Below are positions 6,238 to 51,465 of a stretch of DNA of 64,000 bases, piece after piece. Source of the stretch: Candidatus Altimarinota bacterium (GTDB taxonomy: Bacteria; Patescibacteriota; Gracilibacteria; BD1-5; UBA2023); the NCBI GenBank assembly GCA_043770315.1, contig JAYVIJ010000043.1:1399-65398 (forward strand). The letters run 5' to 3'. Position 1 is the stretch's first letter; each line of letters starts with the position of its first letter. Below the pieces are notes generated by a model that saw only the letters and a program-made list of their open reading frames with translations, did not search any database and was not told where the DNA came from. A program made the translations under genes and the position numbers.

Positions 6238-6978
6238 TTATCGCTTCCAAAATGCGAGGATTCGCTCAAATCGGATATACTCAGTATAGGACATATCAAA
6301 TTTTTTGAGCTTCGTCGCGAGTGGTACTCAGAGATATCTCCAGTGCCATGGCTCGATCTCATAAGCATCGATATACTCTCCATTTTGATAACTCTGATGC
6401 CATCAGTATTCATAGGCATGAGCCTGGAACCAGGCGATATAGCGGCGGTACTTCGCATTTTTATAATATTCTTCCTCGGTCGTCGCATCGAATATATCGA
6501 TCGCGAGACCGAGTTGATGTTCACTATATCCAGGGGGAGCACAGAGAGTCGCATTACATTTTCCGAGATCCCACATTCGCTGTTGGTACTCAGCGCTCCT
6601 ATATCCACTAATCACGACGAGAGGTTCACCGAATTCTTTATAAAATGCCTTAGCAATAAGTCAGAGGGCATCATGGGCCTCCTTTCGAAGTTTACTTTTT
6701 CTTCCAGCTTCTTCTATGTAAGTGAGATCTTCGATCCCGAGAAGATCAGGAGGGATATAGCTCTTATCCGAGAGTCATATATATCGACTCGTGAACACAT
6801 CGATATCTGTATCTTCACCCTGAGAGAATAGTGATGGAAATATCTCGAGAGTATTTCTGATTTCGGTTCCACTGAGTGTCGCCCTACTTCCGATATCACC
6901 AGAACTTGCCTCTGCAAAAAAAGTATACAGAAGCGTGCTGAGTATGATGCTAAATATCCGAAAAAAAAGAGAAAACAT
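6238..6978 (-). CDS. Secreted D-alanyl-D-alanine carboxypeptidase (peptidase M15, VanY-like)
   Basis: Signal peptide MFSLFFRIFSIILSTLLYTFFAEA. Motifs ISGYRS, APPGYSEHQLGLAIDI and YEY-G-WHQSY...EPWHWRYL-G-VP. 246 aa, ends TAA 6238-6240. Same strand, 113 nt downstream of 7092..10892. Confidence 0.8.
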
Positions 6979-7091
6979 GAAGGAAAAATCAGAATCGTAG
7001 TGTAGGGGGAACGCCTTAAAAATCAAATAAAAGCAAAAAAATATTGCCTCCAACGGAGACAATATTTTTAAGCTTCCTGAGAGAACTTTAT

Positions 7092-10000
7092 TTAAGGCTG
7101 ACATCTCAATGTTGCAATTCACCTTCTACCTGGTGCACAGAGTCCACCGCACCAATCTTGAGCACCAGCCAACATAGAATCTCCCGCTGGAGAACAGCTC
7201 GTACCCACATAATCCTCATAACCAGTAGAATTATTTCAAAATGAGACTGTTCCATTTAGTCTACATGAACAGCTTTCTGTTGACCAATAATTTGCTACTG
7301 GTGCTACATCACAATTCGCTCCACTCCATCCACCACTACAAGTATATCCACACTGAAGTCATCCAGCAGTCCATGCTTGTCCGACACTTGTTGGAGCATT
7401 CGCTGTCACAGTACAATGTCATGCAGCGATACATGCAGGACTTGCAGCACAGCTATTTGGAGGTGCTATCCAACATGCATCAGCAGCAGCTTTTTCTATA
7501 GCAGTTCCTGAACAGAGAATCGTATAGTTGGCTCATGCCCAAGGAGTATGGGGCTCACAAATAGTCGTATCTATGAATGGATCACAATCGAGCACAAATT
7601 GGTTATAATCATCGATACTGGTATCCAGTTTCTGGTTATGTACGATCACTCCATTGGCAAGATAGTTATGATTTGGCTTGAAGAGATCATCAGTCTCACC
7701 AGTATCATGGATGCCTGATACATGGAGATTATATACAGGGACTACTTTTTTCTCTACGGTGATATGCTTTATTGGTACAATAGTATTGGTAGTTCCATCT
7801 TGGAATGAGAGAGATTCTCCGGCGATCCATCTCTTATAGATGTCTTTCGCAGCTACATATCGATCATCTTTCGGAAGATAGATTCGATGGATATGATTGG
7901 ATGTAAGAGTCTGATCTCCATACTCGAATGTATAGAGCGTCTGGATTCTCTCCTCATGATGGATAGCTTCAGTGACAGGACGATCGACATAGGTTTTGGA
8001 TATTTCATCATAGGTCTTCACGAGTTCTCCTACTTGGATATCTTCGATCGACTTCGTCTTCCCTGAATCAAGGGTGACTTGTGTTCCTGCGACGAAGCAT
8101 CCATAATCCCAAGTGATAGTTGGTGGTACTACAGCAGCACAGGTGAACTCTCCTCGAGTTGGTGATGGATCTATATCAGTACAAGTTGCTCAGCCACGAC
8201 CACCACAGCTTGCATTGAATTTTCCTGGTTGAGTCGTAGAAATTGCATAACTTGGAGATGTACTTCAAACAGAGAGAGTATCAGTTTCAGTCACCCAAAC
8301 TATAGTATGCACAACTTCACAGTGAGGGAGTACTGCTGCACTACAGCTCAGGGCTCCACAATTCCAATTATAGGTATTATCAAATCCATTTATATCCACA
8401 TCTGTCTGAGCTCCTCAAGTACAGGCAGCTGCCCCTACAGGATATTCTATAGACCCTGTCGTCTGAGCAGTACCACAAGCATCAACAGTAAGTGGTGTAC
8501 ATGAACCTGAACCCACGATAGTTTCATATGCTATATTTCCAAGTACAGGATCTCCATCATAACATCGCATTTGCACCGATCCTGTAAATCCAGGATTAGT
8601 ATTATTGATAGTGACCCAAGGACCTATACCATTATCTAAAATAGGTGATAGTACTGGCATTGTTGATCCACATCATGGTCACCAGTTCTCAGTAATACAT
8701 ATTCCACCTCCGCCTGGACTTCTGCTAATCACATTACTCCATCCACTATCTCCATTTGTATTTCTAGCCTTTACTCTGAAGTCATAGCTTGTACCATTTG
8801 TGAGTCCTGTGACATTTGCATTCGTGGTAATGCTCACTCCGTCAGCGAATACGAGCCAGATAGCAGAGAGAGTCGGCTTGTATTCTATGATATAGTCTGT
8901 CACTACCTCTGCAGGAGCCATCCATGAGAGAGAGACAGAAGCATTTCCTGCTACCCCACTGAGAACAGTAGGAGCAGACGGTCCAGTAGGAGCACAATCT
9001 GGCATTGCAGCCATTTCCGCAGGAGTTTTGTAATATACGAGTTTTCCATTACAACTATTATATATAGCTGATCCTTGTGATGGTTGGTTAGATTGCCACC
9101 ATACAAGACCTCCAGGAGCAGGGCCATTTGTATCGACGAGGCTAAGTTCAGCATTTCCATAAGGGAATCCGACACACTGATCATCTGTCCAGCCACTCGG
9201 AGCATCTTTACATGCCCCAACTGGATTTATAGGTGTAGCGCTAATAATATTACTCGGTCCACTGTCCCCATTTCCATTCCTTGCTTTTACTTGGAAGTCA
9301 TAGCTCGTACCATTCGTCAGTCCTATGACATTCGCTGTTGTACCTGTACCGACACCGTCATTGAAGGTAAGCCAAATAGCTCATGCAGTCGTCTTGTATT
9401 CTACGATATAGTCAGCTATTATACCAGACGGAGCAGTCCACGAGAGTGCGACAGAAGCATTTCATGCGACTCCAGTGAGACCAGTAGGAGGTGAGGGAGG
9501 GAGTGCAGGACATACTACCTGAGCATCGACACTACATCCGCCAAAGACTGCGAACTCTTCTGTATCGAGTGTGAAGCGTCAAGTAACAGGAAGAGAATTG
9601 AGTATACTATCTCTATAGAATCAGCCAAGTGTAGCTTTTGCACCTGCAAGTTGATCACAAGTTGCATCCCATGATACATTCCCATCAATCTCTATTTGTG
9701 TTTTTTGGGCGGGAGTGATATATCCACTTGCTGTCCAGGCAGTAAGCGCAGATTTAAAATTATTCCAACAAGCAACATTCCAACCTCAAGCCTGCTCATG
9801 TGCAAAACAACTAAATGTTCCACAATTTCAACCTACAGGAGCTATCTCACAGTTCACACCACTATATCCAGGATTACAGGTAAATCCACAATTTGGAGAG
9901 TTTCGTGACCAGTCTTGATTGGCGCTTGTCGGAGTTCATAAATTGGTCGTACAGCCGATTCCGTCACAGGCAGGAAGTGTAGATGAGCAATGTGGTATAG

Positions 10001-10892
10001 CAGTACATGAACCTCCATTAAATATCCATTCTACAGCAGTAGTCCCGACGCTCACATCACTATCGACACACTTCCAAGTTACAGATCCTGAGTATCCTCC
10101 TACAGTATTCATAAGGGTGATGGTAGGCCCTGTAGCCACTTGGTTATCACTGATAGAGAATCCAGCAGGGATGAGTGCGCTACAATTTCCGCCTTGCCCA
10201 GATCATGACCATGTTTCTGAGTAACTCATACAACTTGAAGCACCAAGTGGAGCACAGGTTGGACCGCTAAAGCCAGCATTACATGTGTATTTACAATTTG
10301 GGCCTACTTGAGTCCAAGCTTGCCCTATACTTGTCGGAGTTCCAGTTGTGAGGGTGCATCCTGTATATCATGTACATGCTGGTGAAGCAGCACAGGAGTT
10401 TCCAACAGGAGGAGTACTACAATCAATCCCAGTAAATCCGCCAGTACAAGTGTACTTACAATTTGGACCGATCTGAGTCCAAGGCATATTGGCTATAGCA
10501 GGAGTGCCATCCACAAAACTTGCATTCGCATATGCTGGACGAGCAGCACAAGTAAACGCTGGGGGGAGAGGTGGTACAATAGGTGATCCACAAATTACGG
10601 AGCCATCAGCATTTACTGATAATATATACCCAGCACCACAGTTTCATATAAGTCTTTGGTAATAATTCGCAGGCTGATTATTCAATCGTGTCGAGTTTAC
10701 TACTTGACCGCTTTCGAGTCCAGTGAGTGGGGATACTCCAAGCATCCTCTCAAGATACATTGTGAATTCTCAGAGAGTAGCCGTAGGAACTGCTGCTATA
10801 AGAGTAAGGTAGCTCACAGAGAAAAATGCTATGAGAAGTGAGCCTCACAAGATGAGAATTGAGAAGAATTTTCTCGTAAATGAAGGACGCAT
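7092..10892 (-). CDS. 1266-aa membrane-anchored cysteine-rich surface protein: EGF-like repeats, 2x FN3, internal Hint/BIL domain, Cys-rich C-terminal region
   Basis: One frame is open from ATG 10890-10892 to TAA 7092-7094 (all triplets checked for TAA/TAG). N-terminal TM anchor. Repeats of the type GQAWTQIGPNCKYTCTGGFTGIDC. Two FN3 units (...SLSWMAPAEVVTDYIIEYKP...YDFRVKARN). Hint domain from CFVAGTQVTL to NGVIVHN. Confidence 0.8.
7635..8099 (-). other. Hint (bacterial intein-like, BIL) domain inside the 7092..10892 CDS
   Basis: N-terminal block Cys-Phe-Val-Ala-Gly-Thr (Cys codon 8097-8099). C-terminal block VYNLHV...NHNYLANGVIVHN (Asn codon 7635-7637), followed by Gln. About 155 aa with no endonuclease insert. 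Confidence 0.75.
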
Positions 10893-10944: not shown

Positions 10945-12204
10945 TTACGGACAAGGGATTGGTGTGGTCGGTCCAGAGTAGCAAAATGGTCAAGCAATAC
11001 AACTATCATCTGCATATCAAGACTTTGAACATTTCCAGTGATGATTTTCTCCATTTACACTATACCTATCTCAAGTAGAAAAGTTACTTCATGCCTTGAG
11101 GGCTCCTCCATTTATACATGTATTCGTTATTCCAGTACACATTGCAAGGGTCGGGAGAGATTTATTTGCACTACAAGTTGGAGAAGCCCCTCATCATGAT
11201 CATACACATTGCCATATCCAAGGACCATTTGGAAAGCCGCTTACCTCAAGGGGAGAGCCGGTAGTACATACACTTGCACTTACTGAAGCCCAAGTATATG
11301 GACCAGGGAAACTTCCACCATTATAGACAGGGTTACATGCTCCATTTACTACGACACAAGCTCCAAGATTGCATGCTTGAGTTGTAGGTTGAGGAGTATG
11401 ACAGTTGTCATAACTACATGATTGGGTACGGCTTTGGGTTCATGGCCCACATGAGGTATTACATCCTGTCCATGCTGTATAGGTATATGGACCAGTATTG
11501 ATACAACTTTGATAGGGATTTGTTCCACTCAGGACAGTATTCGTACAGGTTCGATTTTGCATGAGGGATACACATGTAGTCGGAGTATTCGCTGAAGAGG
11601 CAGAGTATGCTACGCGAAAATCTCCATTGGGAATTACACCCCAAGGATTGACATTACAGTCACAGCTAATTCCTGGGTTACAGGTTCGTACATCAGCGGG
11701 TTTTACCAGTGCTGGTACTGCTGCGATACATTTCGCATCGGGGAATATATTCCCGAGATTATCCGTACAGGTGACTGTGCCAGTCTGACTTCCAGATGCT
11801 GGTGTGGTTCCACAGAAGCCATTCGTCGGTACACATGTGCCCCATGTTGTTGGAGCATTCCAACGATAGATGGTGTTACATACAGTCGTTCCATCAGCAT
11901 TTATCTTCACGATAGGATTATCTACCCCGCAAGTACTATTTACCTTTCTCTGGTATTGCACAGGATCTACTCATCAGAGCTTATCTGTATTTTTGACCTT
12001 TCCATCTGTAGTAGCGATATTCGTATCTTCGAGAAGATTTTGGAAGTACTGTGTGAATAATGTTCATTTGGGTGAAGTCCCCCCAATCCCATTGGCAGGA
12101 TATGCTGCAGATGTCATCCATGATGAGGATATCTGAAGGATCATACCGATGCAGAGACCGATGATGCCTACACGTACAAATGAAAAGATAGAAGAGTGTT
12201 TCAT
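10945..12204 (-). CDS. 419-aa membrane-anchored cysteine-rich protein with thrombospondin type-1-like repeats
   Basis: ATG 12202-12204 to TAA 10945-10947, read through TGA. N-terminal TM, then NTDKL-G-G-VDPVQYQRKVNSTCGVDNPIVKINADGTTVC. YTAWTGCNTSCGPGTQSRTQSC matches the W..C..SCG.G.Q.R...C pattern of TSP1 repeats. Confidence 0.7.
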
Positions 12205-12533: not shown

Positions 12534-15158
12534 TTAGCGTATTGGAGCAAGACCAGGAGGTGGATCAGTGACGATACGACTATCATATTCAATGATAAAT
12601 GATGCTTTTTTATCATTTGATGAGAGATTTGCTGCGGCTCTTGCTAAAGTCGCTGGTGATATACCACGATAGTATCTAAAATGTTCAAAGTCATATCGAA
12701 GCGGTATTTTGCTATTGCTATTACAATTATCGATTGATTGAGGACAGACAGGAGCTCCTGGTATGGATGCTCATCCGATCGTATTGAGGGAGATAATACT
12801 TCCAAATACATACAGTTGCTTATCGAGGACTCAGGTTGCATTCGAGAGGTCAGTATAGTAAGGCGTTCCACTTCCTGGATCACCAGAGAGAAGAGATCCT
12901 TCAGTGATAAGAGAAGTATCGAGGCGAAAGACGGTATTTTTGACATAGATATTTCCACCATTTCCATTTGCATCTTTGAGTGCGATGAGGGCACGAGGGA
13001 GGACTTGCGCATTCGGAAGGATATAGTCTGCACCGATGGTGATATCACCATATACGACTATAGATGCTTTATTATCGAGGAGAGCAATTTGGGCAGCATT
13101 GATATTTTGACTTCCAGAATATACAATCAAGTTGGTTCATGTATATGTAGAGGCATTGTACGTAGCATTTCTTGTGAGAATACTGATATTTTTGCGTATT
13201 TCATTGAGTATATTTGCGCGAGTGACTGAAGCATTTTTCGGTTGATACATTTCAGTGATGCTTTGGTATATCTTATCACCGCTTGATTGCCCGAGTATTT
13301 TCACTCATCCAGCAAATACGCTATCACTTTGAACAAGAGTACCTTGAGAAAGACCCTGATACGTGATATCTTGTCAACCTACTCACCCGACTCTATAGGT
13401 GATAACAGAGTCATATGCGTAAGATTGCTCTATGTCTACCATATTGACTCGACGAGGCGTTACAGTGAATGAGTGGATATCATTTCCACTCGTCGGTATC
13501 GATATCATCGATGCTCGACCTCACCCAGCGCTGATCCCACGATCACAATATGGACTTCCGTATGATCATCCACTCGGAAGATATGCAAAACAGTCCTGAA
13601 TCGGATTTATACCCGTAGTGTCCTGGAACGTAGAGGCGACATTCGCGACTCATCCCACAGTAGTGACTATAGAAAGTCCATGGATGATATGGGCATTGCT
13701 TGATGCTCCGCTTGGGTCAGTCTTTTGTATAGCACCTGTGATCGTCGTCGGACGTCCTATCTGCCCAGAGAGTCCGATGATACCAATGACTCTATAGAGA
13801 GGAAGGAAGGTGATATTCGTCGTTTGGAACTTCCCAGTGATATCAGCTGAGTGAGCATTTGGTCATGATACATCGACACTCACCGTTCATATACTTATAT
13901 TATTACCAAGAACATTTGGATCTCATGCAGTAGTAGGAGCGTAGCTTGATAAAGAAAAGCTTCGACCAGGAGTATAGTTGTTAGTAAAGGGAAGGGGAGT
14001 AGCATTGGGATTAGTCTCTGTGATTGAGTCATAGAAGCGATATGCTTTATTTGTCTGACCAGCGACATCACCTCTTCCATACGCAAGAGGATTGCCAAAT
14101 AGAGTATTGGTGACCGTAGTACTATTGATTCATACACTATATGTGATATTTCTTCCTATCGCTCCTTCCGCTTTTAGAGTATTCCCATATATATCACGAA
14201 GATTGATTGTGGCATTGAATTTTTGTACGGCATCAGCGAACTTTGAACCGAGAGGGCTTGCAAAATCTCATCCTGCCCAAGTCGTTTTTGGTGTGCTTCC
14301 ATCTGGACAAAGAAGAGCATTTGGGAGATTTGCTGGGATACAAAAAGATGTGAGGAGCGTCCCAGCGGTGACGTTCGCCGCTTGAGATATATTTGCTGCA
14401 TAGACTTGTATCGTTCCTGTGGTAGTCGAACCAAATGGGTCAATGATAGTATAGGTATACTCTGTCGCGAGAGAGAGATCTACATTCGGAAATCCACTTG
14501 ATCATTGATTATAAATATAGGGTCGACATAATGTGATATATCATACAGGGCAGAGTAGCATTGTTATAGTGGCACTTCCGCGTGTAAGTATCCATGCTGG
14601 CACATTTGCCCTGAGTGTTACTGAGTTTGTAGCAAAAGTATAGTCGGAAAAAGGTGCAATATTTGTAAGGGGTGCACCATTGAGAGTTACAGGCATTGCC
14701 CAGAGTTCTGAGTTAAATGGGATTGATCCCACAGTAGTACTCGATGCATTTCAGCTGATGAGTCAAGTGGATTTTGTATAGGTGATACCTTGTCACTCTA
14801 GCTCGATCCAGCCTGCCATACTACTCCAAATATAGCCCCTGAGTGGACATGATATAGCAGCCCCAGTCATACAAGCAACATCGAATTTTGCTTCACTTCC
14901 AGCAACTCCATGGTCAAATTGGGACCATCCTATCGCGTCGGTCCATACATCACCATGAATGATATACCCAGCATCAATACGTACTGGTAAAGGAGAGGGT
15001 CATACCCAAGGGGTTCCCCCCGAAGAGAAGAGAAGATCAGAAGGATTTCCTCCGTAGAGGTAGGTTGTCGCACTTGGAGAATACGCAGCAAATATTTGTA
15101 GAGGAGCTATTATAAATAGACTGAACAAGAATATGATGCGAAAAAGAAAAGATGACAT
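12534..15158 (-). CDS. 874-aa secreted protein with the C-terminal 'NGNGGNIYV' module (paralog of 29154..31484)
   Basis: ATG 15156-15158 to TAA 12534-12536, single frame read codon by codon. Signal peptide MSSFLFRIIFLFSLFIIAPLQIFAAY. C-terminus ...LKDANGNGGNIYVKN...QLYVFGSIISLNTIGG...FIIEYDSRIVTDPPPGLAPIR. Confidence 0.8.
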
Positions 15159-15186: not shown

Positions 15187-16239
15187 TTAGGATTGAAGCT
15201 TAATGCTCGCAACACAAGATTCACGCAAAGAATCATCGACAAGAACATCACATTGGCTTATGTCTTTTGATTCAATAATCTTTTTGATGCGAGTACGATC
15301 AAAACATGATGTCTTAAGTGGACTCTCAGTAAGTTTCTCACAAAGTCTAGGATCTCATTGATTCGTAGCATCGAGAAATATCAAACGTTCTTCTAAAGTT
15401 ATAATTTCTTTTTTACATTGTTCAGCGAGAGAGGTATTTGTGATTTTTTCACAAAGAGAAATATCGCTCTCCTTCTTTGCTCGTGAGTAAAGAGCGGTAT
15501 CTTCACATCGTATTTTTAGAATTTCATCACTCATTTTTTCGCATATTCCAGAATTGGGACTTTCTCCAATTTGAGAAAGTATCTTATAATCATTTTGTAT
15601 GACGATACGGCTTTGACATTCTCATTGGACATCTTTATCGGCGAATTCTTTACAATCTTTTTCTGAAAGTTCTCACTTTGCTGACTGTTTCATCTCGAGA
15701 ACGACAGATTCCGTTCTCTGTTTACATTTTTCTTTCAGACTTATATCTGTTATTTTTTCACAAGTTTCATCATCTTGCTTTGTGCTTCCTGAAAGAGATA
15801 TTTCACTCATAGCAGAAGAGAAATATACATTATTTCTACAGGTATCTCCACTTGTTCCACTGAGGGTCTCACAAATAAGAGGATCTTTTTTTTCCGAAGC
15901 GAGAGAACTCGTAACTTGATTCTCGCAGTTTTGTTTCATTTCATCAATCTCAATTTTCTTGCATACAGTGACATCTTTAGTTCTCGTCGCTTCATTAAAA
16001 AACTCTATTCCCGCAATCGTAGCTTCTTTATTCTTTTCTGCTTCTTCCTCACTTTTTTTCATCGCTTCGATAAATTTCTCATCCTCAGGTGTTATCGTGA
16101 GAACTCTTATATTAGCAGCTTTTGGTGGTACTGACGGTGGAAGTATTTTTTGCTCGTTTGACGGAGAAAAATATATCCATACAGCAATGGCGATACCAAT
16201 GATACCACAAACAAGACTCATCCAAATCGATTTGCTCAT
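15187..16239 (-). CDS. 350-aa membrane-anchored protein built of Cys-pair repeats (family with 18951..19592 and 28117..29091)
   Basis: N-terminal TM (SLVCGIIGIAIAVWIYF), then about nine units of the form D...C-x(7-12)-C, e.g. DISLCEKITNTSLAEQCKKE and DPRLCEKLTESPLKTSCFDR. Ends TAA 15187-15189, 28 nt upstream of 12534..15158. Confidence 0.75.
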
Positions 16240-17757: not shown

Positions 17758-18837
17758 ATGAAATTCCAGCTCGACAACCTCATCACCGAATACGTATCAC
17801 TCGAATCAGAACTTGCAGATCCTACGATCTATGCTGATCTGAAGCGACTCAAATCCGTCAATCAAAATAAGAAATCACTTGAAAAGACAGTCATGCTGTA
17901 TAAGGATTATAAGCGTATTTATGCAAATTATGAAGAAGCCAAAACTCTCGTGACGAATGAGAAAGATCCTGATATGCTTGAGATGATGAAAAGTGAAATA
18001 GCTGATGCAGAGAAAGCCATTCCTGAACTTGAAGAGGCACTAAAATTTGCACTTCTTCCTACAGATCCAAATGATGAAAAAAATATCATTCTCGAAATCC
18101 GTGCAGGTGCATGAGGGGATGAGGCGTGACTCTTTGCTCATGAACTTGCCGAAGCGTATAAAAATTTCGCAAAAAAAGAAGGATACTCGATAGAAGTGAT
18201 GAGTGAAACTTGGAATGATGCTGGCGGATACAAAGAAGTTATTTTTAAGGTTGATGGAGCCTGAGCGTATTCTCGGTTCAAATTTGAATCCTGAGTCCAT
18301 CGAGTTCAGCGTATCCCTGCTACAGAAAAAAATGGACGAGTTCATACGTCTACGACGACTGTAGCTGTCCTTCCGGAAGCTGAAGATGTCGATGTCACGA
18401 TCCGAGAAGAAGATCTCGAAATCAGTGCTTGCCGTGCAAGTGGCGCAGGGGGACAACATGTCAATAAAACGAATTCCGCTATCAGAGTAGTTCATATTCC
18501 TACAGGTCTTGTCGCAGAATGTCAAAATGAGCGTTCACAACTTCAGAATAAACTTACGGCCATCGCTGTTTTAAAATCGCGAATTTTCGCAATGGAAGAA
18601 GAAAAAAAGTTTGCCGCAGAATGAGCTGCTCGTCTTGCACAAGTCGGGTCTGGAGATCGAAGCGAGAAGATACGCACTTATAATTTCCCTCAAGACCGTA
18701 TTACTGATCATCGTATCAATGCAAATTTCTCGAATCTTCCAGTGATTATGACGGGAGATCTTGCCGAGATTATTGATGCACTTGCGATTGCTGATCAAAC
18801 AGCAAAGCTCGAAGCGGCAGCTGGAAATATAGAGTAA
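17758..18837 (+). CDS. prfA: Peptide chain release factor 1
   Basis: 359 aa joined through TGA. RF1-type tripeptide in [14 protein letters not shown] (P-A-T, not SPF). GGQ motif in [13 protein letters not shown]. Ends TAA. Confidence 0.93.
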
Positions 18838-29153: not shown

Positions 29154-31484
29154 ATGATGTGGTATTTTTCTACGATCATCTCGCTGTTTTCTATTGTATG
29201 GGGATTTTTTTGATGTATTTCATCCTGAGAAGCAGCGACGACATATTCACCAGGGAGTACTATCGCTATGACTGGATCCAATGGCGAAGTATTTTTTGAT
29301 GTTACAGATGATCTTTTCGGATATCCTATACCGAGGCCCAGTTTCGATATGATGCTTGGAACTTTTTCTTGAGCGTTCTATCTTTCTTGAGCAGGTTGGG
29401 TCGATTTCTTGACGGGAAGCTATAGTGTTGCTCTCGATTGCGGCGCTCAGTCTTATGATGCACTTACTCTCCCTTGTACCCTTTCATGAGTCGCATATGG
29501 TGAGATAGTAGGGGATGTCCTATTTGATCGACAAGTCCTATTTGATCCTACGACATGACGACTTTCAGGTACCGCTTCTACCTATATCTGAGTCTATGAT
29601 TTTTCTGGTATCACCCTCCCACTCCTTCCTGCGAGTTTCGTCCTCGGCAATAGAGTCACAGCCGATAACGAGAAAGATCTCTCACTCTCGGGTATGAGCC
29701 TCTATGGAGATACCGTATGGAATATATTTATGGAGACGTCGCCAGGAGGTATGAATATCTCTTATACAGTCGGTCTACCTACCGACCTTTCTCATGCAAC
29801 GACGTACTATGTTGAAATACACGATCCAGATGGAGGAGTGACGACGATCGATGATTTTGAAGTAGTTGCTGATCAGCCATCGAGCGTTCTCTACTCCGCG
29901 ACACCGACTATTCGAGCAGATTTTTGTACGAATAATTTTCCTTCACTCCTTTGTCCAGATGGAACAACTTTGAAAGCTATGACTCTTGATCGGACAGAGA
30001 CCATCACCCCGATGATTGCCAACGGTGTCGATATGTATAACTTTGTTCTGAAGCTTCGAGATCGATATGGAAATGAAGTACGAGAAGGAAGTATAAAAGT
30101 GGATTATACAGATATGATTCGTACGATTCAGGCAGATCCACTCAAATATAATAATTTGGTTATAGATGCTTGTTCATTTGGTACCTGTGCTATCATCTCT
30201 CAGGGTGATCTTCAGAATTTCTTCGATGGTGTACTTACGACAGGAGACGTCATCATAGGTATGAGTGATATCAATTTTGATATAGCGAGTATTGCTCCAT
30301 CGACCCTTACGGATACCATCACTCTCTCAGGAATACTCTATACTGATACTTTTTGAGTAAGTCATGATGTGACCGATCCGACATGGAGAGCGCCACTGGT
30401 GTTTGATCCATGGTATACGACGAGTATACTTCCGATTCCATCGATCGTCGTTTGAAGCGTCGTGGACTTTACGACGAACTATGCACGCACGACTTCAGCT
30501 ATACCACCCAATACTCCTACGGCGATATATGATATAGCAATCGGTTCCAATAATCCTGCAGCATTTACGGGTTTTGTATCAGCTATAGCCCCATCATGCA
30601 CTAAATATTATCTTTCATCGGGACTAGATGAGTGTGATTGGGGAGGTACTCCAGATCCTGTCATGATCTCGACGGAGTCACTCAGTTTCTCTGGTATCTA
30701 CTGATATGGTGGATATGAGCCACCACCAGAGAACATCAACTATAACTCGTATATACGATATAGTGTGCTTCATCCACTGCTTGGTACGAATGTCGTATCA
30801 TACTATCCGAGTGGAAATGGAAGTCTCGGAATATCCAATCCTGGAGCTATCCGTATGAAAATCCTCGGACAACACAATCTCCCTGGACTTTCCTGAATCC
30901 AAGAAAAAAATATTGCTGATATCTGGAACACTCTCCAAAAAAATATCGCACTGATGTCACGCAATCGTACGACATATGCTGATGTTCCTTATAGTGTCAC
31001 AGAGGGTAATATCTCGATATCTGATACTGACTTCACATCGACATCACCAGAGAAGCGGACGATCGTATCTCTCGGGTGAGACATCACGATCACGAGCGAT
31101 ATCATAGAAAAAACTTCACCTATAGCTATCATCGCCCTTTCTGATACAGATGGAAATGGTGGAAATATCATCATCGATCCAAGTGTCACAGATATCCACG
31201 CTACTCTCCTCGCAGAGAGGGTAGTGTCATCTACCGGATCCAATCAACTCTATATCCATGGAAGTGTCATATCTCATAATACCACGAGCGATAGCACCTG
31301 TCCATACTATATCTCTCCATGTGCCAATCCTGAACTGTATAATCTCGAAAATCTCCGCAAAGATTTCATCATCACGCCAGGCAGTCTTGCATCTTCTCTC
31401 TCTGGGAAATACCCCAATATCCCACTTATCATCGAGTATGATGGAAGAGTCATATCTTATCCACCACCGATTCTCGAACAGTAG
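29154..31484 (+). CDS. 776-aa secreted protein with the C-terminal 'DGNGGNIII' module (paralog of 12534..15158)
   Basis: Single frame from ATG 29154 to TAG 31482-31484, read codon by codon. Shares NFPSLLCPDGTTLK, LKLRDRYGNEV, KNIALMSRN, SDTDGNGGNIIIDPSVTDI, QLYIHGSVISHNT, YNLENLRKDF and LIIEYDGRVISYPPPILEQ with its paralogs. Confidence 0.8.
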
Positions 31485-45857: not shown

Positions 45858-46076
45858 ATGAAAACATATATACTTATCTTGTCATCACTCTTTCTTCTCA
45901 CATCTTGTGGATGATCGAAGTGAGACACAGATACGCCGACCAATACTGACCCTGTAACTCCTACTGTTTCCCAGACAAAATCCTCAGACTGAGTTCCTGC
46001 CATCGATCCAAGCACTATAGAGAGTGCTGCTATCACGACGGATGGTTCGACGGGAGTGACTATTCGTCCTCGATAA
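45858..46076 (+). CDS. 72-aa lipoprotein (hypothetical)
   Basis: MKTYILILSSLFLLTS-C lipobox, with a Thr/Pro/Ser-rich mature part. Three in-frame TGA. Ends TAA. Confidence 0.55.
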
Positions 46077-46104
46077 TTTCTCTTATTCTTTATTCTTCGC
46101 TTCT

Positions 46105-49100
46105 ATGCGTACCGTACTTACTCGATCTTTGCTCGTACTCGGACTTCTCTTTGGTGGAGCTTTCAGCACCGCTGCTGCAGAACTTCCTTGCAACCAGAGT
46201 TTTTCTCCACTCTATCTCCGATATGGTGCCTTTCACTATCTTCAAGATAAAGTTTCTAACACGAATAACTTCCCACTCTATGCTCAGAGCATGTATGGTG
46301 AGTTCAGTACACTCGGGTACTTCGTAGGAGGAGGACAGCTCGATAAGCCGGTACTCTGGGATATTCCTGCTCTTGCGAGCAATCTTGTGATGATGCAATC
46401 AGAGTTTCCTGTACAGATTGCCAATCGTCCTGCAGTACGATCGACAGATATGGTACGAGGTGATATATATGCACAATATGTAATGACATGGGATATACTC
46501 AATACTGTGACTACAGCAGATGATACGAGACACGTAGAATGTCAGCCATATATCGTGACATGGTGTGGTGATGGAACTAAGGATACTCAGCTTGATTGGA
46601 CAAATACTCCCTATGAATCATGTGATGATGGTGCTCTTAATGGTCAACCTGGAAAGTGTAATGCTACATGTAGTGGTACTACTCCTCCGACTCCAGTTCC
46701 ATGAGTATGTGGATCATCGAATGGTCAGACTCTTGCATCTGTACCAGTGATGAATCTCTGTAATGCTGGTACACCGACAGCAGTATCTGGATCAGGCCCT
46801 TGGACATGGTCATGTACAGGTCTCAATGGTGGAGCAAATAGTCCAGTCTGTAGTGCGAATCCACTCCCTCCCCCAGTGAATGGAGTCTGTAGTAGTACTG
46901 TTTCATGAGAAGTATGATTACCACTTGCGAACGGTGCATGTAATCTAGGTACTGTCATTGGATTTGGATCTACAGGAACCAACCCAGTCAACTATACTTG
47001 GAGCTGTAGTGGTACAAATGGTGGTGCCAATAGTCCTACATGTAATGCAAGCTATACTCCACCACCTCCTGTAGTCAATGGGGTTTGTAGTTCAGCGGTC
47101 ACGGGGCCACAATCAGCACCACTTCTTGCATGAGTATGTAATGCTGGTACAGTAGCATGATTCTCATCTGTGGGTACGAATCCAGTAAACTATTCATGGA
47201 CATGTAATGGACTTAATGGTGGAACCAATAGTTCTTCATGTACAGCGAGTTATATTCCTCCTCCAGTACCAGTCAATGGAGTCTGTAGTTCCACAGTTAC
47301 AGGTCCTCAGAGCTCACCGCTTGTCACAGGTTCTTGTAATGCTGGTTCAGTTTTAGGTTTTCTCGCATCAGGAACAAATCCAGTCAATTATAGCTGGACT
47401 TGTGGATGAGTAAATGGCGGATCAAATAGTCCTACTTGTAATGCCAACTATACTCCTCCCGTCACAAATTTCGCCGTATCGATCAAAAAATATGTCGATA
47501 CATTCGATGCTCAAACCATAAGTGGAGCTGTCATACTCAATACTGGAGACACATTCGATTATATACTCAGAATCAAAAATGAGTGACCAGCTCCTACGAG
47601 CGGTATCACTACCGTGACCGATGCACTTCCTGTAGGTGTCATGCTTAATGGCCCAATATCAGCACCAGGATGGACTTGTACAGGGACAATAAATATTAGC
47701 TGTGCTTCATCTTCAGTTGTTGCCGCGAATGCATTTTACTCAGATATTACACTTCATATGAAGGTAACTGCAACAGGAGGTACTATCACCAATATTGCGA
47801 CAGTATCAAATCCAGGTGGCTCACCACCGACTGGTCCTTCGACTGATCCAGGAGTGATCGTTGTGCCTCCTCCTCCAGTATGTAGTGCTACCTATGTAGG
47901 TGCACTCCCAGCTCCGATCAATGCTACCACCCCAGGTCTTTGTAATGTCGGAACTTCTATGACATTTATGACTTTTGCGAGTGGTACAACACAAAACTTT
48001 ACTTGGTCTTGTAAATCATGAACAAAAACAGTGGGATGTAATGCCAACTATACTCCTCCAGTGAATCATTTCGCGGTATCGATCAAGAAATATGTAAATA
48101 CATTTGATGCTCAGACAGTCAGTGGAGCTGTAATACTCAATACGGGAGATACATTCGAATATATACTAAAGGTGAAAAATGAATGACCAGACTCGACAAC
48201 AGGTACAACAACTGTAGTAGATGTACTGCCTACATGAGTAGTACTCAATGGCTCAATATCAGCACCAGGCTGGACATGTGTAGGAACTACTACTATAATC
48301 TGTATCAACAATAATTCTATCGCTGGAAATACCTTCTTCCCAGATATCACTCTTCCTATGAAGGTGACAGCGACCAGCGGTACTATTACGAACATCGCAT
48401 CAGTCTCGAATCCAGGATGTGGTACCCCTGTATGACCTACGACTGATCCAGGAGTGATCGTTGTTGCACCACCACCAGTATGTGATTCAGGAAAAATCGG
48501 TGTCCAGTCTTCTCCGTTATCCATGGGATATTGTGCAAGTGGTACTGCGACAGGATTCACTGCTGTAGGAGTCAATCCAATCAATTATTCTTGGTCATGT
48601 ATAAATGTGAAAAATCAATCAGTTACTTGTAATGCAAGTTATAGTACAGGAAGCACCCCTTCATGTAATAGTATAACTGTAAATCCTGTTTCTGGAAATA
48701 TCCCCCTTGTATCAAATATTTCTTGTAATACGACAAATGCAACATCAGTTGTTATTACTTGTGGAAATGGTCAAACACTCTCATGATCTATAGGAGTTTG
48801 TACTTATACGACAGTAGGAACATTCACGCCAACTTGTACAGTCAATGGAACTATCACGAATGCAGCATGTAAAGGAACAGTAACAACTACCAATACTCCA
48901 CCTCCTCCTTCCGCTTCTTACGTCTCTATTAAGAAGTACGCTGGTACTCTCGATGGTCAAGATGCGACAGGAGCTCTCTCTGTTGTTCCAGGTGGATCAT
49001 TTAATTACCGATACGATGTATCTAATACAGGTACTGTCGCAGCTACAGGTGTAGTCGTTACAGATACACTGCCTCAGTATGTGAGTATTAATTCAATTAC

Positions 49101-51465
49101 GAAACCAGCAGGATGGAACTGTGTTCAAGGAACAAAAACAGTCTGAGTGGTCGTACATGCTACTCTTGTTTGTACTACTCCTTCTCTTGCAGCAGGTGCT
49201 ACTGTTTCTATAACAGTCAATGCTACTCTGGCTCTCACAACTCCTGCAAACGCACAACTTCGAAATATTGCTTACGTATGTAAGCAAGGTGATGCTCCTA
49301 CAGTCAACTGTGATCCTACTTGTATCGTCGATCCGACACACCCAAGATGTAATCCTCCACCTCCACCTCCTCAGTGTGATCCTATGCCAGGAAGTCCAAA
49401 CTATGATCCTGCATGTGTAGTGACTCCTCCTTCGACTCTTCGATCGTGTGATACACTCACATCACTTCCAAGTGGTTCAACCCTCTCTCCAAATGTAGAT
49501 GTCACATATACATGTGCTGCTACAGGATCTATCGCTATCCCAGCAAATCTCGAATACTCTATCAAGTGTGGTGCTGGTGATACATCGACTGGTTCGACGT
49601 ATACAGGATCCAATACTCGTGTGTGTCGTACGCCAAGTACAAACTCTACTTCACAGACTATCACTTGTGCTGTCCGAGATAAGTCGACTGGTGTAGTATT
49701 CTCTGGATCTGAAATCTGAGCATGTAATGTTACGAAGACGACTTCAGGTGGTGGTAGTAGCACGACGATTCTCTATGTTCCAAAATGTGTAAATGGTAGC
49801 CCGACATGTGCTACTACTGGAAATTATGCTGATACAGCACTTTGTAAACTGGGAGAATGAAGAGATTGTTATAGCAATCAAACAGATTGTGAGATTGCAA
49901 AATGAACTCTCTCTTGTGGATGAGGCGGATGTAGTGGACCAAGCTGTGGAAGTTGTGTCGGAGCAGGATGTTCGAATGGATGAGGATACTGTGGTGACTG
50001 AGTTCTTCAGTCTGGTGAAGAGTGTGATGTAGCTGGTGCTACTTGGTGTGGACAACGGGGAGAAAGAGACTATCTTGGTGATCTTATCGAATGTCAGATC
50101 AAGGGTCTTACGACTCCTGGAGCTAATCCTATCACGGACCTCTGGATGACGATCCCGACTCTTTCAAATACACGACTTGGATATACATGGCTTGATGGTA
50201 CAGTAGGAAAAATCCGATTTAATGATAATGGTATGGTCCTCGGTGTGAATACACGAGCCTTCACTATAGCTGACAAGGTAGGATTTGGAATCAAAAGAGA
50301 GTTTAATGTCCCACTTACTGTCGAAGCAAACAAGATCATATGTCTGACATCTTCAGGGACAAGCATGAATAGTAATACTGCATGTACAAACTTTGGTAAC
50401 CTCGTTCCAGCATCGATGAAGTTTACGGTTCCTGCTACGGGGAAGCAATATGTACTTATCGGAAATGGTGATTACCAAGTCCGACAACTTGATGGAACTT
50501 ATAGACAGTATACTGTGACAGGAAATCCGAATAATATCGATCTCTTCAAGGGTGCAAATACCTATGTCACTTCAAATGGAACTATGAAACTCTATGAAGC
50601 GTTCTACGGTACTCAGATCGGTCTTGATGGTCAACTTGCACTCTATCATAATAGTATCACTACAGGTCAACCAATCGATCTCGCAGCACTCAGAGTGAAT
50701 GTATCAGGAGCAAAAGTCGGAGGAACATCATCGACCGTGAATCGTAAACTCGAAACCTATATTAATAGTACAAGTCTTGTCAGTATATTCCTCTCTGGAT
50801 TCCAAGGATATACGACGACGACCTCTTCGACTGATGCAGTCGGTGGTGGCTCAGCTACAGCAGTAAATGGTGGAGTGACAGTAAATACTACCAATGCTCC
50901 TCTAGGAGGACTCAATGTCGCTGGTGCCGCTATACCAGCAGCGTATAGACTCAATGGAAATGATAACATATATTCTGTAAGAGGTGATGTGATCATGAAT
51001 TGTACAAGCGGTATCACTGCTACAGAACTCCAAGGGATCCGTACACTTATCGTAGAAAATGGTGACCTCATCATCAACTGTAATAATGGCTATGGATCAT
51101 CAGATATATCTTCGAGCTGGGCATTCATCGTAAAAAATGGAAATATCCGAGTCGCAAAAGAAGTGACCAATATGGCTGGTATCTATGTATCTATAGGTAC
51201 ACCTGGTGCTACTGCTTGTGATGGAACAGGGAATATCTGTTCTGTAGGAAATCAAGCAACCAATAATATTCTCCGTCTTAATGGAAGTATGTATGGAAAT
51301 GCGAAACCACTCTTCGATAGTCGTCTCTATGTCCGTGGTACGAATGCTTATGACATACTCACAACAGGAGTCATCATCTCCTACTCAAATCGAGCCCTCG
51401 TGAATCCTCCACCACTTCTCTCACAATATCTCAATAACTATAGTGTGACAAGAGTCGTGAAGTAA
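46105..51465 (+). CDS. 1786-aa secreted repeat adhesin-like protein
   Basis: Frame 1 is open from ATG 46105 to TAA 51463-51465 (all gaps read codon by codon). Signal peptide ...GAFSTAAAE. CGDG...CDDG Cys-rich repeats. Seven ~60-aa repeats (VNGVCSS...NPVNYSWTCNGLNGG.NS..C). Three DUF11-like units (VSIKKYV.TFDAQT...LP.GV...GWTC). The C-terminal module is shared with 12534..15158. Confidence 0.85.

What the first reader, a model, noticed from the sequence alone, without database searches (positions are those of the whole stretch)
7092..8099. Hint (intein-like) domain followed by a ~180-aa Cys-rich C-terminal region: polymorphic-toxin-like or autoprocessing architecture
The 1266-aa surface protein contains a complete Hint fold (CFVAGTQV ... 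NGVIVHN). The residue after the terminal Asn is Gln, not Cys/Ser/Thr, and there is no homing-endonuclease insert. This fits a bacterial intein-like (BIL) cleavage domain rather than a splicing intein.

In polymorphic toxin systems a Hint domain releases the C-terminal payload. Here the downstream region (7092-7634) is extremely Cys-rich and ends with an EGF-like unit similar to those upstream of the Hint domain.
Basis: partly seen in the sequence, partly recalled or inferred. Interest (0 to 1): 0.7.

Follow-up and report, generated by a model that had tools for sequence, protein, structure and literature searches.

The report
Intein-like self-cleaving domain in surface protein
A large cysteine-rich surface protein of an uncultured bacterium that reads TGA as glycine carries a bacterial intein-like (Hint) self-processing domain near its C-terminus; this is a known kind of domain, and the stretch after it looks like more of the same surface protein, not a toxin.

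Summary
Gene 7092-10892 (minus strand) then encodes 1266 aa through 22 in-frame TGA codons.

Residues 932-1086 (nt 7635-8099) form a complete 155-aa Hint domain:
- It scores above the Pfam PT-HINT gathering cut-off.
- Its closest solved relatives are the two bacterial-intein-like (BIL) structures, Tetrahymena BIL2 and C. thermocellum BIL.
- Cys1, the block-B His and the terminal His-Asn are present and nearly invariant in 115 related domains.
- The +1 residue is Gln, and there is no endonuclease insert.

So this is a type-A BIL / PT-HINT autoprocessing domain, not a splicing intein.

The polymorphic-toxin reading is not supported:
- The 180-aa tail matches no toxin family.
- Its first part is a post-Hint Cys module that recurs in relatives.
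- It contains a repeat orthologous to one that sits before the Hint in a syntenic ortholog.
- The downstream gene is a conserved VanY carboxypeptidase, not an immunity gene.
- Near-clonal strains differ upstream of the Hint (codons 200-700), not in the tail.
- A third ortholog lacks the Hint cassette altogether.

Verdict: a new member of a known kind, of modest interest.

The parts
7092..10892 (-). Gene for the 1266-aa Cys-rich surface protein, read with code 25 (22 in-frame TGA = Gly; TAA stop at 7092-7094)
   Evidence: the same protein (translated with code 4) is in public assemblies as P0152
10788..10868 (-). N-terminal hydrophobic segment (aa 9-35, after R2/R7/K8): signal anchor or signal peptide, so the rest of the protein is extracytoplasmic (inferred)
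   Evidence: The highest Kyte-Doolittle windows of the protein start at aa 8-17; conserved in the orthologs
9831..10556 (-). Three Cys-rich ~55-aa repeats with an EGF-type signature: units 1-3 at aa 113-164, 165-219 and 295-354
8718..9497 (-). Two fibronectin type III domains (about aa 466-555 and 641-725) with a Cys-containing linker
   Evidence: Pfam fn3 E 2.3e-27, two stretches
8793..10295 (-). Hypervariable patch (codons about 200-700): 113 of the 121 mismatches to a near-clonal strain over 9.8 kb fall here
8100..8120 (-). Conserved N-flank TITWDYG (aa 925-931), ending in the scissile Gly931|Cys932 bond
   Evidence: Ortholog P0003 has TITWEYG|C; relatives have W-x-[YF]|C
7635..8099 (-). 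Hint (BIL / PT-HINT) domain, aa 932-1086. Key residues: Cys932 (8097-8099); block-B His1002 (7887-7889) in N-x-x-H; block-F Y-N-L-H-V with Asn1055 (7728-7730); His1085-Asn1086 (7635-7640)
7629..7634 (-). +1 Gln1087 and +2 Lys1088 (the family motif is HN-x-K)
   Evidence: +1 is C/S/T in only 9 of 131 domains; Lys is at +1 or +2 in 88 of 131, against a 4.6% background
7458..7634 (-). Post-Hint Cys module (aa 1087-1145) containing CSGTAIEKAAADAC
   Evidence: The motif C-x-G-[TS]-x6-8-[AFYLMV]-x2-C lies 26-41 aa after HN in 12 of 71 tails, against 1 of 476 control windows
7293..7457 (-). Cys-rich repeat unit 4 (aa 1146-1200). Its orthologous copy sits directly before the Hint in P0003 and before a different C-terminus in P0159
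   Evidence: 77% aa and 83% nt identity to the P0003 unit
7095..7292 (-). C-terminal Cys module (aa 1201-1266), homologous to the end of P0003
6238..7104 (-). Downstream VanY-type D-Ala-D-Ala carboxypeptidase gene, overlapping the stop of the target gene by 13 nt (context only, not an immunity gene)
   Evidence: Pfam VanY E 8.7e-27; same position in L026, L027, L030 and L031

Best explanation
Residues 932-1086 are a catalytically competent bacterial-intein-like Hint domain. It has the type-A features (Cys1 at the start, His-Asn at the end) and is filed by Pfam under PT-HINT. It sits in the variable C-terminal half of a membrane-anchored, disulfide-rich, adhesin-like surface protein of a code-25 bacterium (Gracilibacteria or Absconditabacteria).

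Inferred mechanism:
1. After export, the Hint folds. Cys932 attacks the Gly931 carbonyl (N-S acyl shift, helped by His1002), giving a thioester.
2. Asn1086, helped by His1085, cyclises and cuts the Asn1086|Gln1087 bond.
3. Because +1 is Gln, the canonical branched intermediate cannot form.

As shown experimentally for type-A BILs, the expected products are mainly cleavage products. These are the anchored N-terminal ectodomain (to Gly931), the free 155-aa Hint, and the 180-aa Cys-rich tail. A fraction may be ligated, when the freed amino group of the tail attacks the thioester.

The tail is not a toxin payload. It consists of a post-Hint companion module, one more copy of the protein's own Cys-rich repeat, and a conserved end module. 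Hint plus tail behaves as an optional, recombining cassette of a mosaic surface protein.

Shown: the domain's identity, its residues, its family, the cassette behaviour and purifying selection. Inferred: that cleavage happens, where the protein is located, and what the products are.
For: Identity of the domain:
- PT-HINT above the gathering score.
- Nearest solved relatives by sequence, by profile and by fold are Tetrahymena BIL2 (E 1e-8, 3e-16 and 1e-11 respectively), the UmbC PT-HINT (profile E 2e-11) and the C. thermocellum BIL (profile E 1e-7, fold E 3e-9). All rank ahead of inteins and Hedgehog.

Catalytic residues kept across 115 full-length relatives:
- Cys1 in 114 of 115.
- Block-B His in 113 of 115.
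- Penultimate His in 114 of 115.
- Terminal Asn in 115 of 115.

Other points:
- The +1 residue is non-nucleophilic in 122 of 131 domains.
- Purifying selection acts on the Hint between positional orthologs: pN 0.20 against pS 0.72, dN/dS about 0.10.
- The Hint holds only its catalytic Cys, inside a protein with 60 other Cys (44 before, 16 after, both even numbers). This fits a free thiol in an otherwise disulfide-bonded ectodomain.
- Cassette behaviour: a syntenic ortholog (P0003) has the Hint after repeat unit 4 instead of before it. Another ortholog (P0159) has unit 4 followed by a different C-terminus and no Hint.

Published biochemistry:
[quoted passage not shown] They mostly cleave and can ligate through the freed amino group (PMC4031507, PMC7664689, PMC5874633).
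Against: - No biochemical data exist for this domain or its close relatives.
- Block B has Asn where inteins have Thr (N-x-x-H). Block F has Asn where inteins have Asp (Y-N-L-H-V). Both are family-wide (80 of 115 and 103 of 115), so they are probably tolerated, but their effect on catalysis is unknown.
- The Pfam score is only 1.9 bits above the cut-off.
- Many relatives, including ones in standard-code genomes, have only 2-12 residues after His-Asn. There C-terminal release cannot be the point, and the relevant chemistry may be at the N-terminal junction only.
- The extracytoplasmic location rests on a hydrophobic N-terminus and on domain types alone.
Confidence: 0.68

Rival explanations
1. 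Polymorphic-toxin system: the Hint releases the 180-aa Cys-rich C-terminus as a toxin that acts on other cells.
For: - The Pfam model that matches is PT-HINT.
- More distant members of that Pfam family do carry toxin domains: PF15540 and PF15652 in P0275 and P0278, and UmbC 8W20.
- Between orthologs the tail evolves faster than the rest (dN/dS 0.54).
- One ortholog has a different C-terminus.
Against: - The tail has no hit to any Pfam or NCBIfam family.
- None of the bacterial tails among 21 close relatives has a toxin domain.
- There is no immunity-like gene. The next gene is VanY, in the same position in four related loci.
- One third of the tail is a copy of the protein's own structural repeat.
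- Strain-level variation lies upstream of the Hint.
- There is no T5SS, T6SS, T7SS, Rhs or CdiA trafficking part.
Confidence: 0.07
2. Hedgehog-like use of the domain: only the N-terminal thioester matters, and the ectodomain's new C-terminus (Gly931) is passed to an outside nucleophile. That could be water (simple shedding), or an amine or hydroxyl on the cell's own wall or on a host or prey surface. The Hint and tail are then by-products.
For: - In relatives from standard-code genomes the Hint is often at the extreme C-terminus, with 2, 3, 7 or 12 residues before the stop.
- 40 of 118 tails are 15 aa or shorter.
- The junction is G|CF, as in Hedgehog (the Hedgehog site is from my own knowledge).
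- Genomic relatives are mostly in predatory Bdellovibrionota.
Against: - The terminal His-Asn is invariant (115 of 115). Hedgehog-type domains do not need it.
- No adduct-recognition region is identifiable.
- Hedgehog structures rank below the BILs and inteins and are absent from the profile hits at E<=0.01.
Confidence: 0.12
3. Inactive relic: the Hint no longer processes anything and serves only as a structural spacer.
For: Block-B Thr and block-F Asp are replaced by Asn, and the Pfam score is marginal.
Against: - All four key catalytic positions are kept in at least 113 of 115 relatives.
- dN/dS is about 0.1.
- The two substitutions are family-wide, not private decay.
Confidence: 0.08
4. A true (mini-)intein that splices the two halves of the surface protein together by the canonical route.
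For: Hint fold with Cys1 and His-Asn.
Against: - +1 is Gln, and only 9 of 131 family members have C/S/T there.
- The insertion site is a non-conserved, rearranging region. One ortholog lacks the element and has a different sequence there, not a spliced-type junction.
- There is no endonuclease.
Confidence: 0.02

Closest known systems
Type-A bacterial intein-like (BIL) domains (Amitai et al. 2003; Dassa et al. 2004; C. thermocellum BIL, PDB 2LWY)
   Same: - Hint fold with an N-terminal Cys, block-B His and C-terminal His-Asn.
- No +1 nucleophile and no endonuclease.
- Sits in a variable region of a secreted, non-conserved protein.
- 2LWY is the fifth-ranked fold match (the second distinct protein), with E 2.8e-9 and TM 0.87, and profile E 1.3e-7.
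   Different: - Block B is N-x-x-H, not T-x-x-H.
- Block F is Y-N-L-H-V.
- A Lys is conserved at +1 or +2.
- A recurrent Cys-rich post-Hint module follows the domain.
- The host is a code-25 candidate-phyla bacterium.
- Activity is untested.
Tetrahymena thermophila BUBL BIL2 (PDB 6TMM, 6Y75)
   Same: It is the closest solved relative by sequence (E 1.3e-8), by profile (3e-16) and by fold (1e-11). Ciliate BUBL-type proteins appear among the top 150 relatives.
   Different: BIL2 is flanked by ubiquitin-like domains in a eukaryote and makes a Lys isopeptide bond (PMC8616854). Here the flanks are extracellular Cys-rich modules.
PT-HINT (PF07591) of polymorphic toxin proteins, e.g. Streptomyces UmbC (PDB 8W20)
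   Same: The Pfam model matches above its cut-off, with profile E 1.8e-11 to UmbC. The domain lies near the C-terminus of a large secreted protein.
   Different: There is no toxin domain after it and no immunity gene. Strain variability lies before the Hint, not after it.
BIL domains of predatory bacteria (Dori-Bachash et al. 2009, Funct Integr Genomics 9:153; seen only as a reference in PMC2797640, PMC2814812 and PMC3403396)
   Same: Seven of the nine closest genomic relatives found are from Bdellovibrionota: Bdellovibrio, Bacteriovoracales, Bacteriovorax stolpii and others.
   Different: Neither the paper nor its sequences were available, so I could not test whether this is the same subtype.
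Hedgehog C-terminal autoprocessing (Hog) domain
   Same: G|CF scissile site and N-S acyl shift chemistry. In many relatives the domain is C-terminal.
   Different: - Hog lacks the terminal His-Asn and has a sterol-recognition region.
- Fold matches are weaker (E 1.7e-5 to 3e-5).

Membership tests
Type-A BIL domain | Hint (Hedgehog/intein) fold | tested here: met
   AF2 model with the Hint core mostly at pLDDT above 90. The top Foldseek hits are BIL2, the C. thermocellum BIL and mini-inteins. Pfam gives Hint-clan hits.
Type-A BIL domain | N-terminal Cys/Ser nucleophile and block-B His | tested here: met
   Cys932 and His1002 are present. The family keeps them in 114 of 115 and 113 of 115. The residue three before the His is Asn, not Thr (N in 80, T in 34).
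Type-A BIL domain | C-terminal His-Asn (similarity to intein block G) | tested here: met
   VIVHN ends at Asn1086. The family has His in 114 of 115 and Asn in 115 of 115. The definition is taken from PMC4031507.
Type-A BIL domain | No Cys/Ser/Thr at +1 | tested here: met
   +1 is Gln1087. The family has C/S/T in only 9 of 131.
Type-A BIL domain | Located in a non-conserved, variable region of a secreted or surface protein | tested here: met
   The position differs between orthologs, and the domain is absent from P0159. Secretion itself is inferred from the hydrophobic N-terminus, the FN3 domains and the Cys-rich repeats.
Type-A BIL domain | Autocatalytic N- and/or C-terminal cleavage, with some ligation | not testable with these tools
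   This needs protein expression and mass spectrometry.
Polymorphic toxin system with PT-HINT | Match to PF07591 above the gathering score | tested here: met
   29.6 bits against a cut-off of 27.7.
Polymorphic toxin system with PT-HINT | Recognisable toxin domain C-terminal to the Hint | tested here: not met
   No Pfam family at E<=10 for aa 1087-1266, and none in NCBIfam. Tails of close bacterial relatives also have none.
Polymorphic toxin system with PT-HINT | Cognate immunity gene immediately downstream | tested here: not met
   The downstream gene is VanY (E 8.7e-27), followed by Tag glycosylase and a methyltransferase. The order is the same in L026, L027, L030 and L031.
Polymorphic toxin system with PT-HINT | Conserved N-terminal part with C-terminal tips that vary between strains | tested here: inconclusive
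   Near-clonal strains vary in codons 200-700 and have identical tails. Diverged orthologs do differ more in the tail (dN/dS 0.54), and one has another C-terminus.
Canonical intein | Cys/Ser/Thr at +1, allowing the branched intermediate | tested here: not met
   +1 is Gln1087.
Canonical intein | Insertion at a conserved site of a conserved host protein | tested here: not met
   The host region is a mosaic, and the insertion point differs between orthologs.
Hedgehog-type Hog domain | No C-terminal His-Asn, plus an adduct (sterol) recognition region after the Hint | tested here: not met
   His-Asn is present and invariant. No such region is detectable.

The most novel reading that the evidence does not exclude
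The Hint may act as a one-shot 'chemical harpoon'. The ectodomain is anchored by its N-terminus in the bacterium's own membrane. The thioester formed at Gly931 would then be attacked by an amine on the surface of a host or prey cell. This would tie the two cells together covalently, while the Hint and tail are shed.

The idea would account for three things:
- This Hint type is concentrated in predatory Bdellovibrionota and in code-25 bacteria.
- Many relatives have almost nothing after His-Asn.
- It sits at the end of adhesin-like proteins.

A milder variant is that Lys1088 (the HN-x-K motif) is the acceptor, giving an isopeptide-branched product as in Tetrahymena BIL2. That variant is weakened by the presence of the Lys even in tails of 3-12 residues.
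Probability: 0.07. Interest if true: 0.8.

Novelty: new member of a known kind. Interest (0 to 1): 0.33.

Why it matters
For annotation, the window must be read with code 25. With the standard code this gene shatters into fragments, and the Hint appears as an orphan 162-aa ORF. Such fragments are already in public protein collections.

For biology, it places an apparently active self-processing module inside a strain-variable, disulfide-rich surface protein of a candidate-phyla bacterium. It also shows that the module travels as a cassette (Hint plus a small Cys module). That cassette is shared with predatory Bdellovibrionota and is related to the ciliate ubiquitin-dispensing BIL. If processing is confirmed, it would be a route to shedding or remodelling surface proteins in organisms whose cell-surface biology is almost unknown.

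It is not a new principle. BIL domains in variable secreted proteins have been known since 2003.

Tried and rejected
- **Table-11 ORFs.** ORF listing and translation with table 11 gave fragments only. I replaced them with my own code-25 ORF calling.
- **Word-index homologue search.** A search with Hint plus tail found one protein, and only for the Cys repeat. The full HMMER scan was needed.
- So I used only the TGA-free stretch aa 902-1119 (window:7536-8189:-). The tail could not be modelled.
- **Genome-collection scan.** It used the pattern [NG]HNY[FY]A[NGE]G[VI]. The taxon is inferred from the genetic code alone.
- **tRNA check.** No tRNA-Gly(UCA) lies in the window.
- **Tail and non-FN3 segments.** Pfam at E<=10 gave nothing useful.
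- **'EGF-like' profile against PDB.** Not significant, E 1.7.
- **Third homologue search (with a profile).** It returned only short fragments under 280 aa and added little taxonomy.
- **Identical Hint and tail among alleles.** I first read this as constraint. I rejected that because the strains are near-clonal everywhere except codons 200-700. It shows where the variable part is, not that the tail is constrained.
- **Lys1088 as the ligation nucleophile.** Considered because BIL2 forms a Lys isopeptide (PMC8616854). I down-weighted it because the Lys is kept in relatives with tails of 3-12 residues.
- **Dori-Bachash et al. 2009.** The paper on BILs of predatory bacteria is not held.
Full report
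**1. Reading frame and genetic code**

With the standard bacterial code the region is a string of short ORFs. The minus-strand frame that carries the reported motifs is interrupted only by TGA between 10940 and 7094: 22 TGA codons, then TAA at 7092-7094.

TGA stands for glycine, on three lines of evidence:
- The two FN3 repeats of the protein read GVA[TGA]NAS and GVAGNAS.
- Where our TGA codons align with ordinary codons in alleles and orthologs, the residue is Gly at positions 438, 319, 504 and 1258. Conversely, 'W' in code-4 database translations aligns with our Gly codons.
- In housekeeping genes of the window, TGA falls on glycines of motifs I know to be invariant: UvrB P-x-GDQP, RF1 GGDEA, GatA PGGxSSG and Mfd GDVGFGKT.

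This is code 25, known only from Gracilibacteria and Absconditabacteria (my knowledge of the NCBI code table).

**2. The observation**

CFVAGTQV starts at Cys932 (nt 8097-8099). NGVIVHN ends at Asn1086 (nt 7635). Gln1087 follows, and 180 residues remain. The evidence that this is a Hint domain:
- Pfam gives PT-HINT at 29.6 bits (cut-off 27.7), plus sub-threshold hits to other Hint-clan models and two strong FN3 domains.
- phmmer against PDB sequences gives Tetrahymena BIL2 (6TMM, 6Y75) at E 1.3e-8 and the Streptomyces UmbC Hint (8W20) at E 5e-4.
- A profile of 30 relatives ranks BIL2 (3e-16), UmbC (2e-11) and the C. thermocellum BIL 2LWY (1e-7) ahead of inteins (7e-5 or weaker). No Hedgehog chain appears at E<=0.01.
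- An AF2 model of aa 902-1119 has most of the Hint core at pLDDT above 90, with disordered flanks.
- Foldseek ranks BIL2 (1e-11), 2LWY (3e-9), mini-inteins (4e-8 and weaker), then Hedgehog (2e-5).
- At 155 aa there is no endonuclease insert.

The tail has 16 Cys in 180 aa. The part before the Hint has 44 in 931. The Hint has only Cys932.

The repeat in the tail is real (aa 1146-1200; three more copies lie at 113-164, 165-219 and 295-354). However, it is not at the very end, and its likeness to EGF is limited to the CxxxCxxG[FYW]xGxxC signature.

**3. The family**

A full HMMER scan of 1.84 billion representative proteins found 1544 relatives (185 at E<1e-10, 25 at E<1e-30).

Conservation in 115 full-length domains:

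| Position | Count |
|---|---|
| Cys1 | 114 |
| Block-B His | 113 |
| Residue three before that His | Asn in 80, Thr in 34 (ours Asn) |
| Asn of the Y-N-L-H-V strand (intein block F has Asp here) | 103 |
| Penultimate His | 114 |
| Terminal Asn | 115 |

Other family features:
- The +1 residue is Lys, Ala, Val, Leu and so on. It is Cys, Ser or Thr in only 9 of 131 domains.
- A Lys sits at +1 or +2 in 88 of 131, against a 4.6% Lys background. Ours reads HN-Q-K.
- Tails range from 0 to over 700 residues, and 40 of 118 are 15 aa or shorter.
- In standard-code genomes the short tails are real: 2, 3, 7 and 12 residues before the stop in L004, L008, L005 and L003.
- Some members carry 3-7 Hints in tandem.
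- Of the nine closest named genomic relatives, seven are Bdellovibrionota.
- Ciliate BUBL-type proteins, with ubiquitin or ADP-ribosyltransferase after the Hint, are also among the top 150.
- None of the bacterial tails among the 21 longest has a Pfam toxin domain.
- Two recurrent Cys-rich post-Hint modules exist. One begins HNVKxCGG (12 proteins). The other has C-x-G-[TS]-x6-8-[AFYLMV]-x2-C at 26-41 residues after His-Asn. It occurs in 12 of 71 tails, against 1 of 476 control windows. Ours is CSGTAIEKAAADAC.

**4. Alleles and orthologs**

The protein, translated with code 4, is in public assemblies (P0152) together with alleles P0157 and P0154.

The strains are almost clonal:
- Over 9.8 kb, 120 of 121 mismatches to L031 lie in this gene.
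- 113 of them fall in codons 200-700.
- Two synonymous changes lie in the Hint, and none in the tail or the neighbouring genes.
- P0154 also swaps a cassette at aa 726-812.

So the strain-variable part is the mid ectodomain, not the tail.

P0003 is a positional ortholog. Its locus keeps the gene order CorA, 351-aa gene, 874-aa gene, TSP1-like gene, target, VanY, Tag, methyltransferase, GatA, HisRS. Compared with ours:
- The N-terminal 555 aa are 79-91% identical.
- The middle is replaced by a Fib_succ_major-like domain (sub-threshold, E 1.6e-6).
- The Hint is 70% identical.
- The tail is 24-44% identical across its three parts, but alignable from start to end.
- Repeat unit 4 lies directly before the Hint in P0003 and after it in ours, at 77% aa and 83% nt identity.

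P0159 has the same upstream gene and is complete on its contig. It carries unit 4 followed by a different 240-aa Cys-rich end, with weak VOMI and jacalin hits, and no Hint.

Between ours and P0003, dN/dS is 0.15 for the N-terminus, 0.10 for the Hint and 0.54 for the tail. Synonymous divergence is higher in the Hint and tail (pS 0.72 and 0.65) than in the N-terminus (0.50). The GC3 of the Hint (0.39) exceeds that of its flanks (0.23-0.27). Hint plus tail is therefore an optional cassette with its own history, and the Hint itself is under purifying selection.

**5. Mechanism**

What is shown: the domain has the full catalytic set for thioester formation and Asn cyclisation, lacks the +1 nucleophile, is conserved, and sits in a variable extracytoplasmic protein.

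From published work:
- BIL2 makes a Lys isopeptide (PMC8616854).

I therefore infer autoprocessing at Gly931|Cys932 and Asn1086|Gln1087 after export. This would separate the anchored ectodomain, the Hint and the Cys-rich tail, with possible partial ligation. Which product matters biologically is open. The many relatives with near-zero tails suggest that the N-terminal reaction is the conserved one.

**6. Why not a polymorphic toxin**
- There is no toxin domain.
- There is no immunity gene. VanY overlaps the stop codon and is syntenic.
- The tail is built from a companion module, the protein's own repeat and a conserved end.
- Strain variability lies elsewhere in the gene.

The faster evolution of the tail and the alternative C-terminus of P0159 keep a small probability alive.

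**7. Verdict**

The 'BIL-type autoprocessing' interpretation is supported, and the 'toxin-like payload' interpretation is not. This is a new member of a known kind. Its sub-family traits are N-x-x-H, Y-N-L-H-V, HN-x-K and the post-Hint Cys module, and its distribution is skewed towards predatory bacteria. These traits may merit a specialist's look.

Noticed in passing
window 1-64000: The whole window uses genetic code 25 (TGA = Gly). Housekeeping genes carry 3-31 in-frame TGA codons at glycine positions. Only release factor 1 (17758-18837, + strand) is seen. Table-11 ORF lists here are artefacts.
   Followed up: yes
window 8793-10295 (codons ~200-700 of the target gene): A hypervariable patch. 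Against a near-clonal strain (L031), 113 of the 121 mismatches in 9.8 kb fall here, while the neighbouring genes are identical. Allele P0154 also swaps a cassette at aa 726-812. The cause (recombination or diversifying selection) was not worked out.
   Followed up: partly
window 7635-8099 compared with its flanks: The Hint has GC3 0.39, against 0.23-0.27 in the rest of the gene. Its synonymous divergence from the ortholog is also higher than that of the N-terminus (pS 0.72 against 0.50). This hints that the cassette was acquired or exchanged separately.
   Followed up: partly
window 10945-12204 (minus strand): The upstream neighbour is a 419-aa Cys-rich protein with a sub-threshold thrombospondin type-1 repeat (WTGCNTSCGPGTQSRTQSC; TSP1_ADAMTS E 1.5e-4). 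It is syntenic in L027 and L029.
   Followed up: partly
window 6238-7104 (minus strand): A VanY-type D-Ala-D-Ala carboxypeptidase with a hydrophobic N-terminus overlaps the stop codon of the target gene by 13 nt. This suggests co-transcription and translational coupling.
   Followed up: partly
window 12534-15158 (-), 29154-31484 (+), 46024-51465 (+): Three large predicted surface proteins share a similar C-terminal end (...D-x-NGNGGNI...IIEYD-x-R...PPP). The 1813-aa one has three DUF11 stretches and repeats of the type PVNGVCSS...GTNPVNYxWxC. The other two have no Pfam match.
   Followed up: partly
window 15187-16239 (minus strand): A 350-aa membrane-anchored protein made of short Cys-x-K/E-rich repeats (e.g. 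CEKITDISLKEKC), with no Pfam match.
   Followed up: no
related proteins P0024, P0045, P0052, P0069, P0096: Relatives carry 3-7 Hint domains in direct tandem, joined by HNKGGCF, HNKCF or HNCF. In the last case the next Hint's Cys1 is the +1 residue of the previous one.
   Followed up: no
related proteins P0115, P0135: Ciliate-type BUBL proteins, with ubiquitin or an ADP-ribosyltransferase after the Hint, fall within the top 150 relatives of this bacterial Hint. Together with the best PDB match, this links the bacterial sub-family and the eukaryotic BILs.
   Followed up: partly
loci L001-L009, L017, L019: The named genomes carrying the closest standard-code relatives are mostly Bdellovibrionota (Bdellovibrio, Bacteriovoracales, Bacteriovorax stolpii, Oligoflexia). 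More distant hits are in Thermoplasmatota and other archaea.
   Followed up: partly
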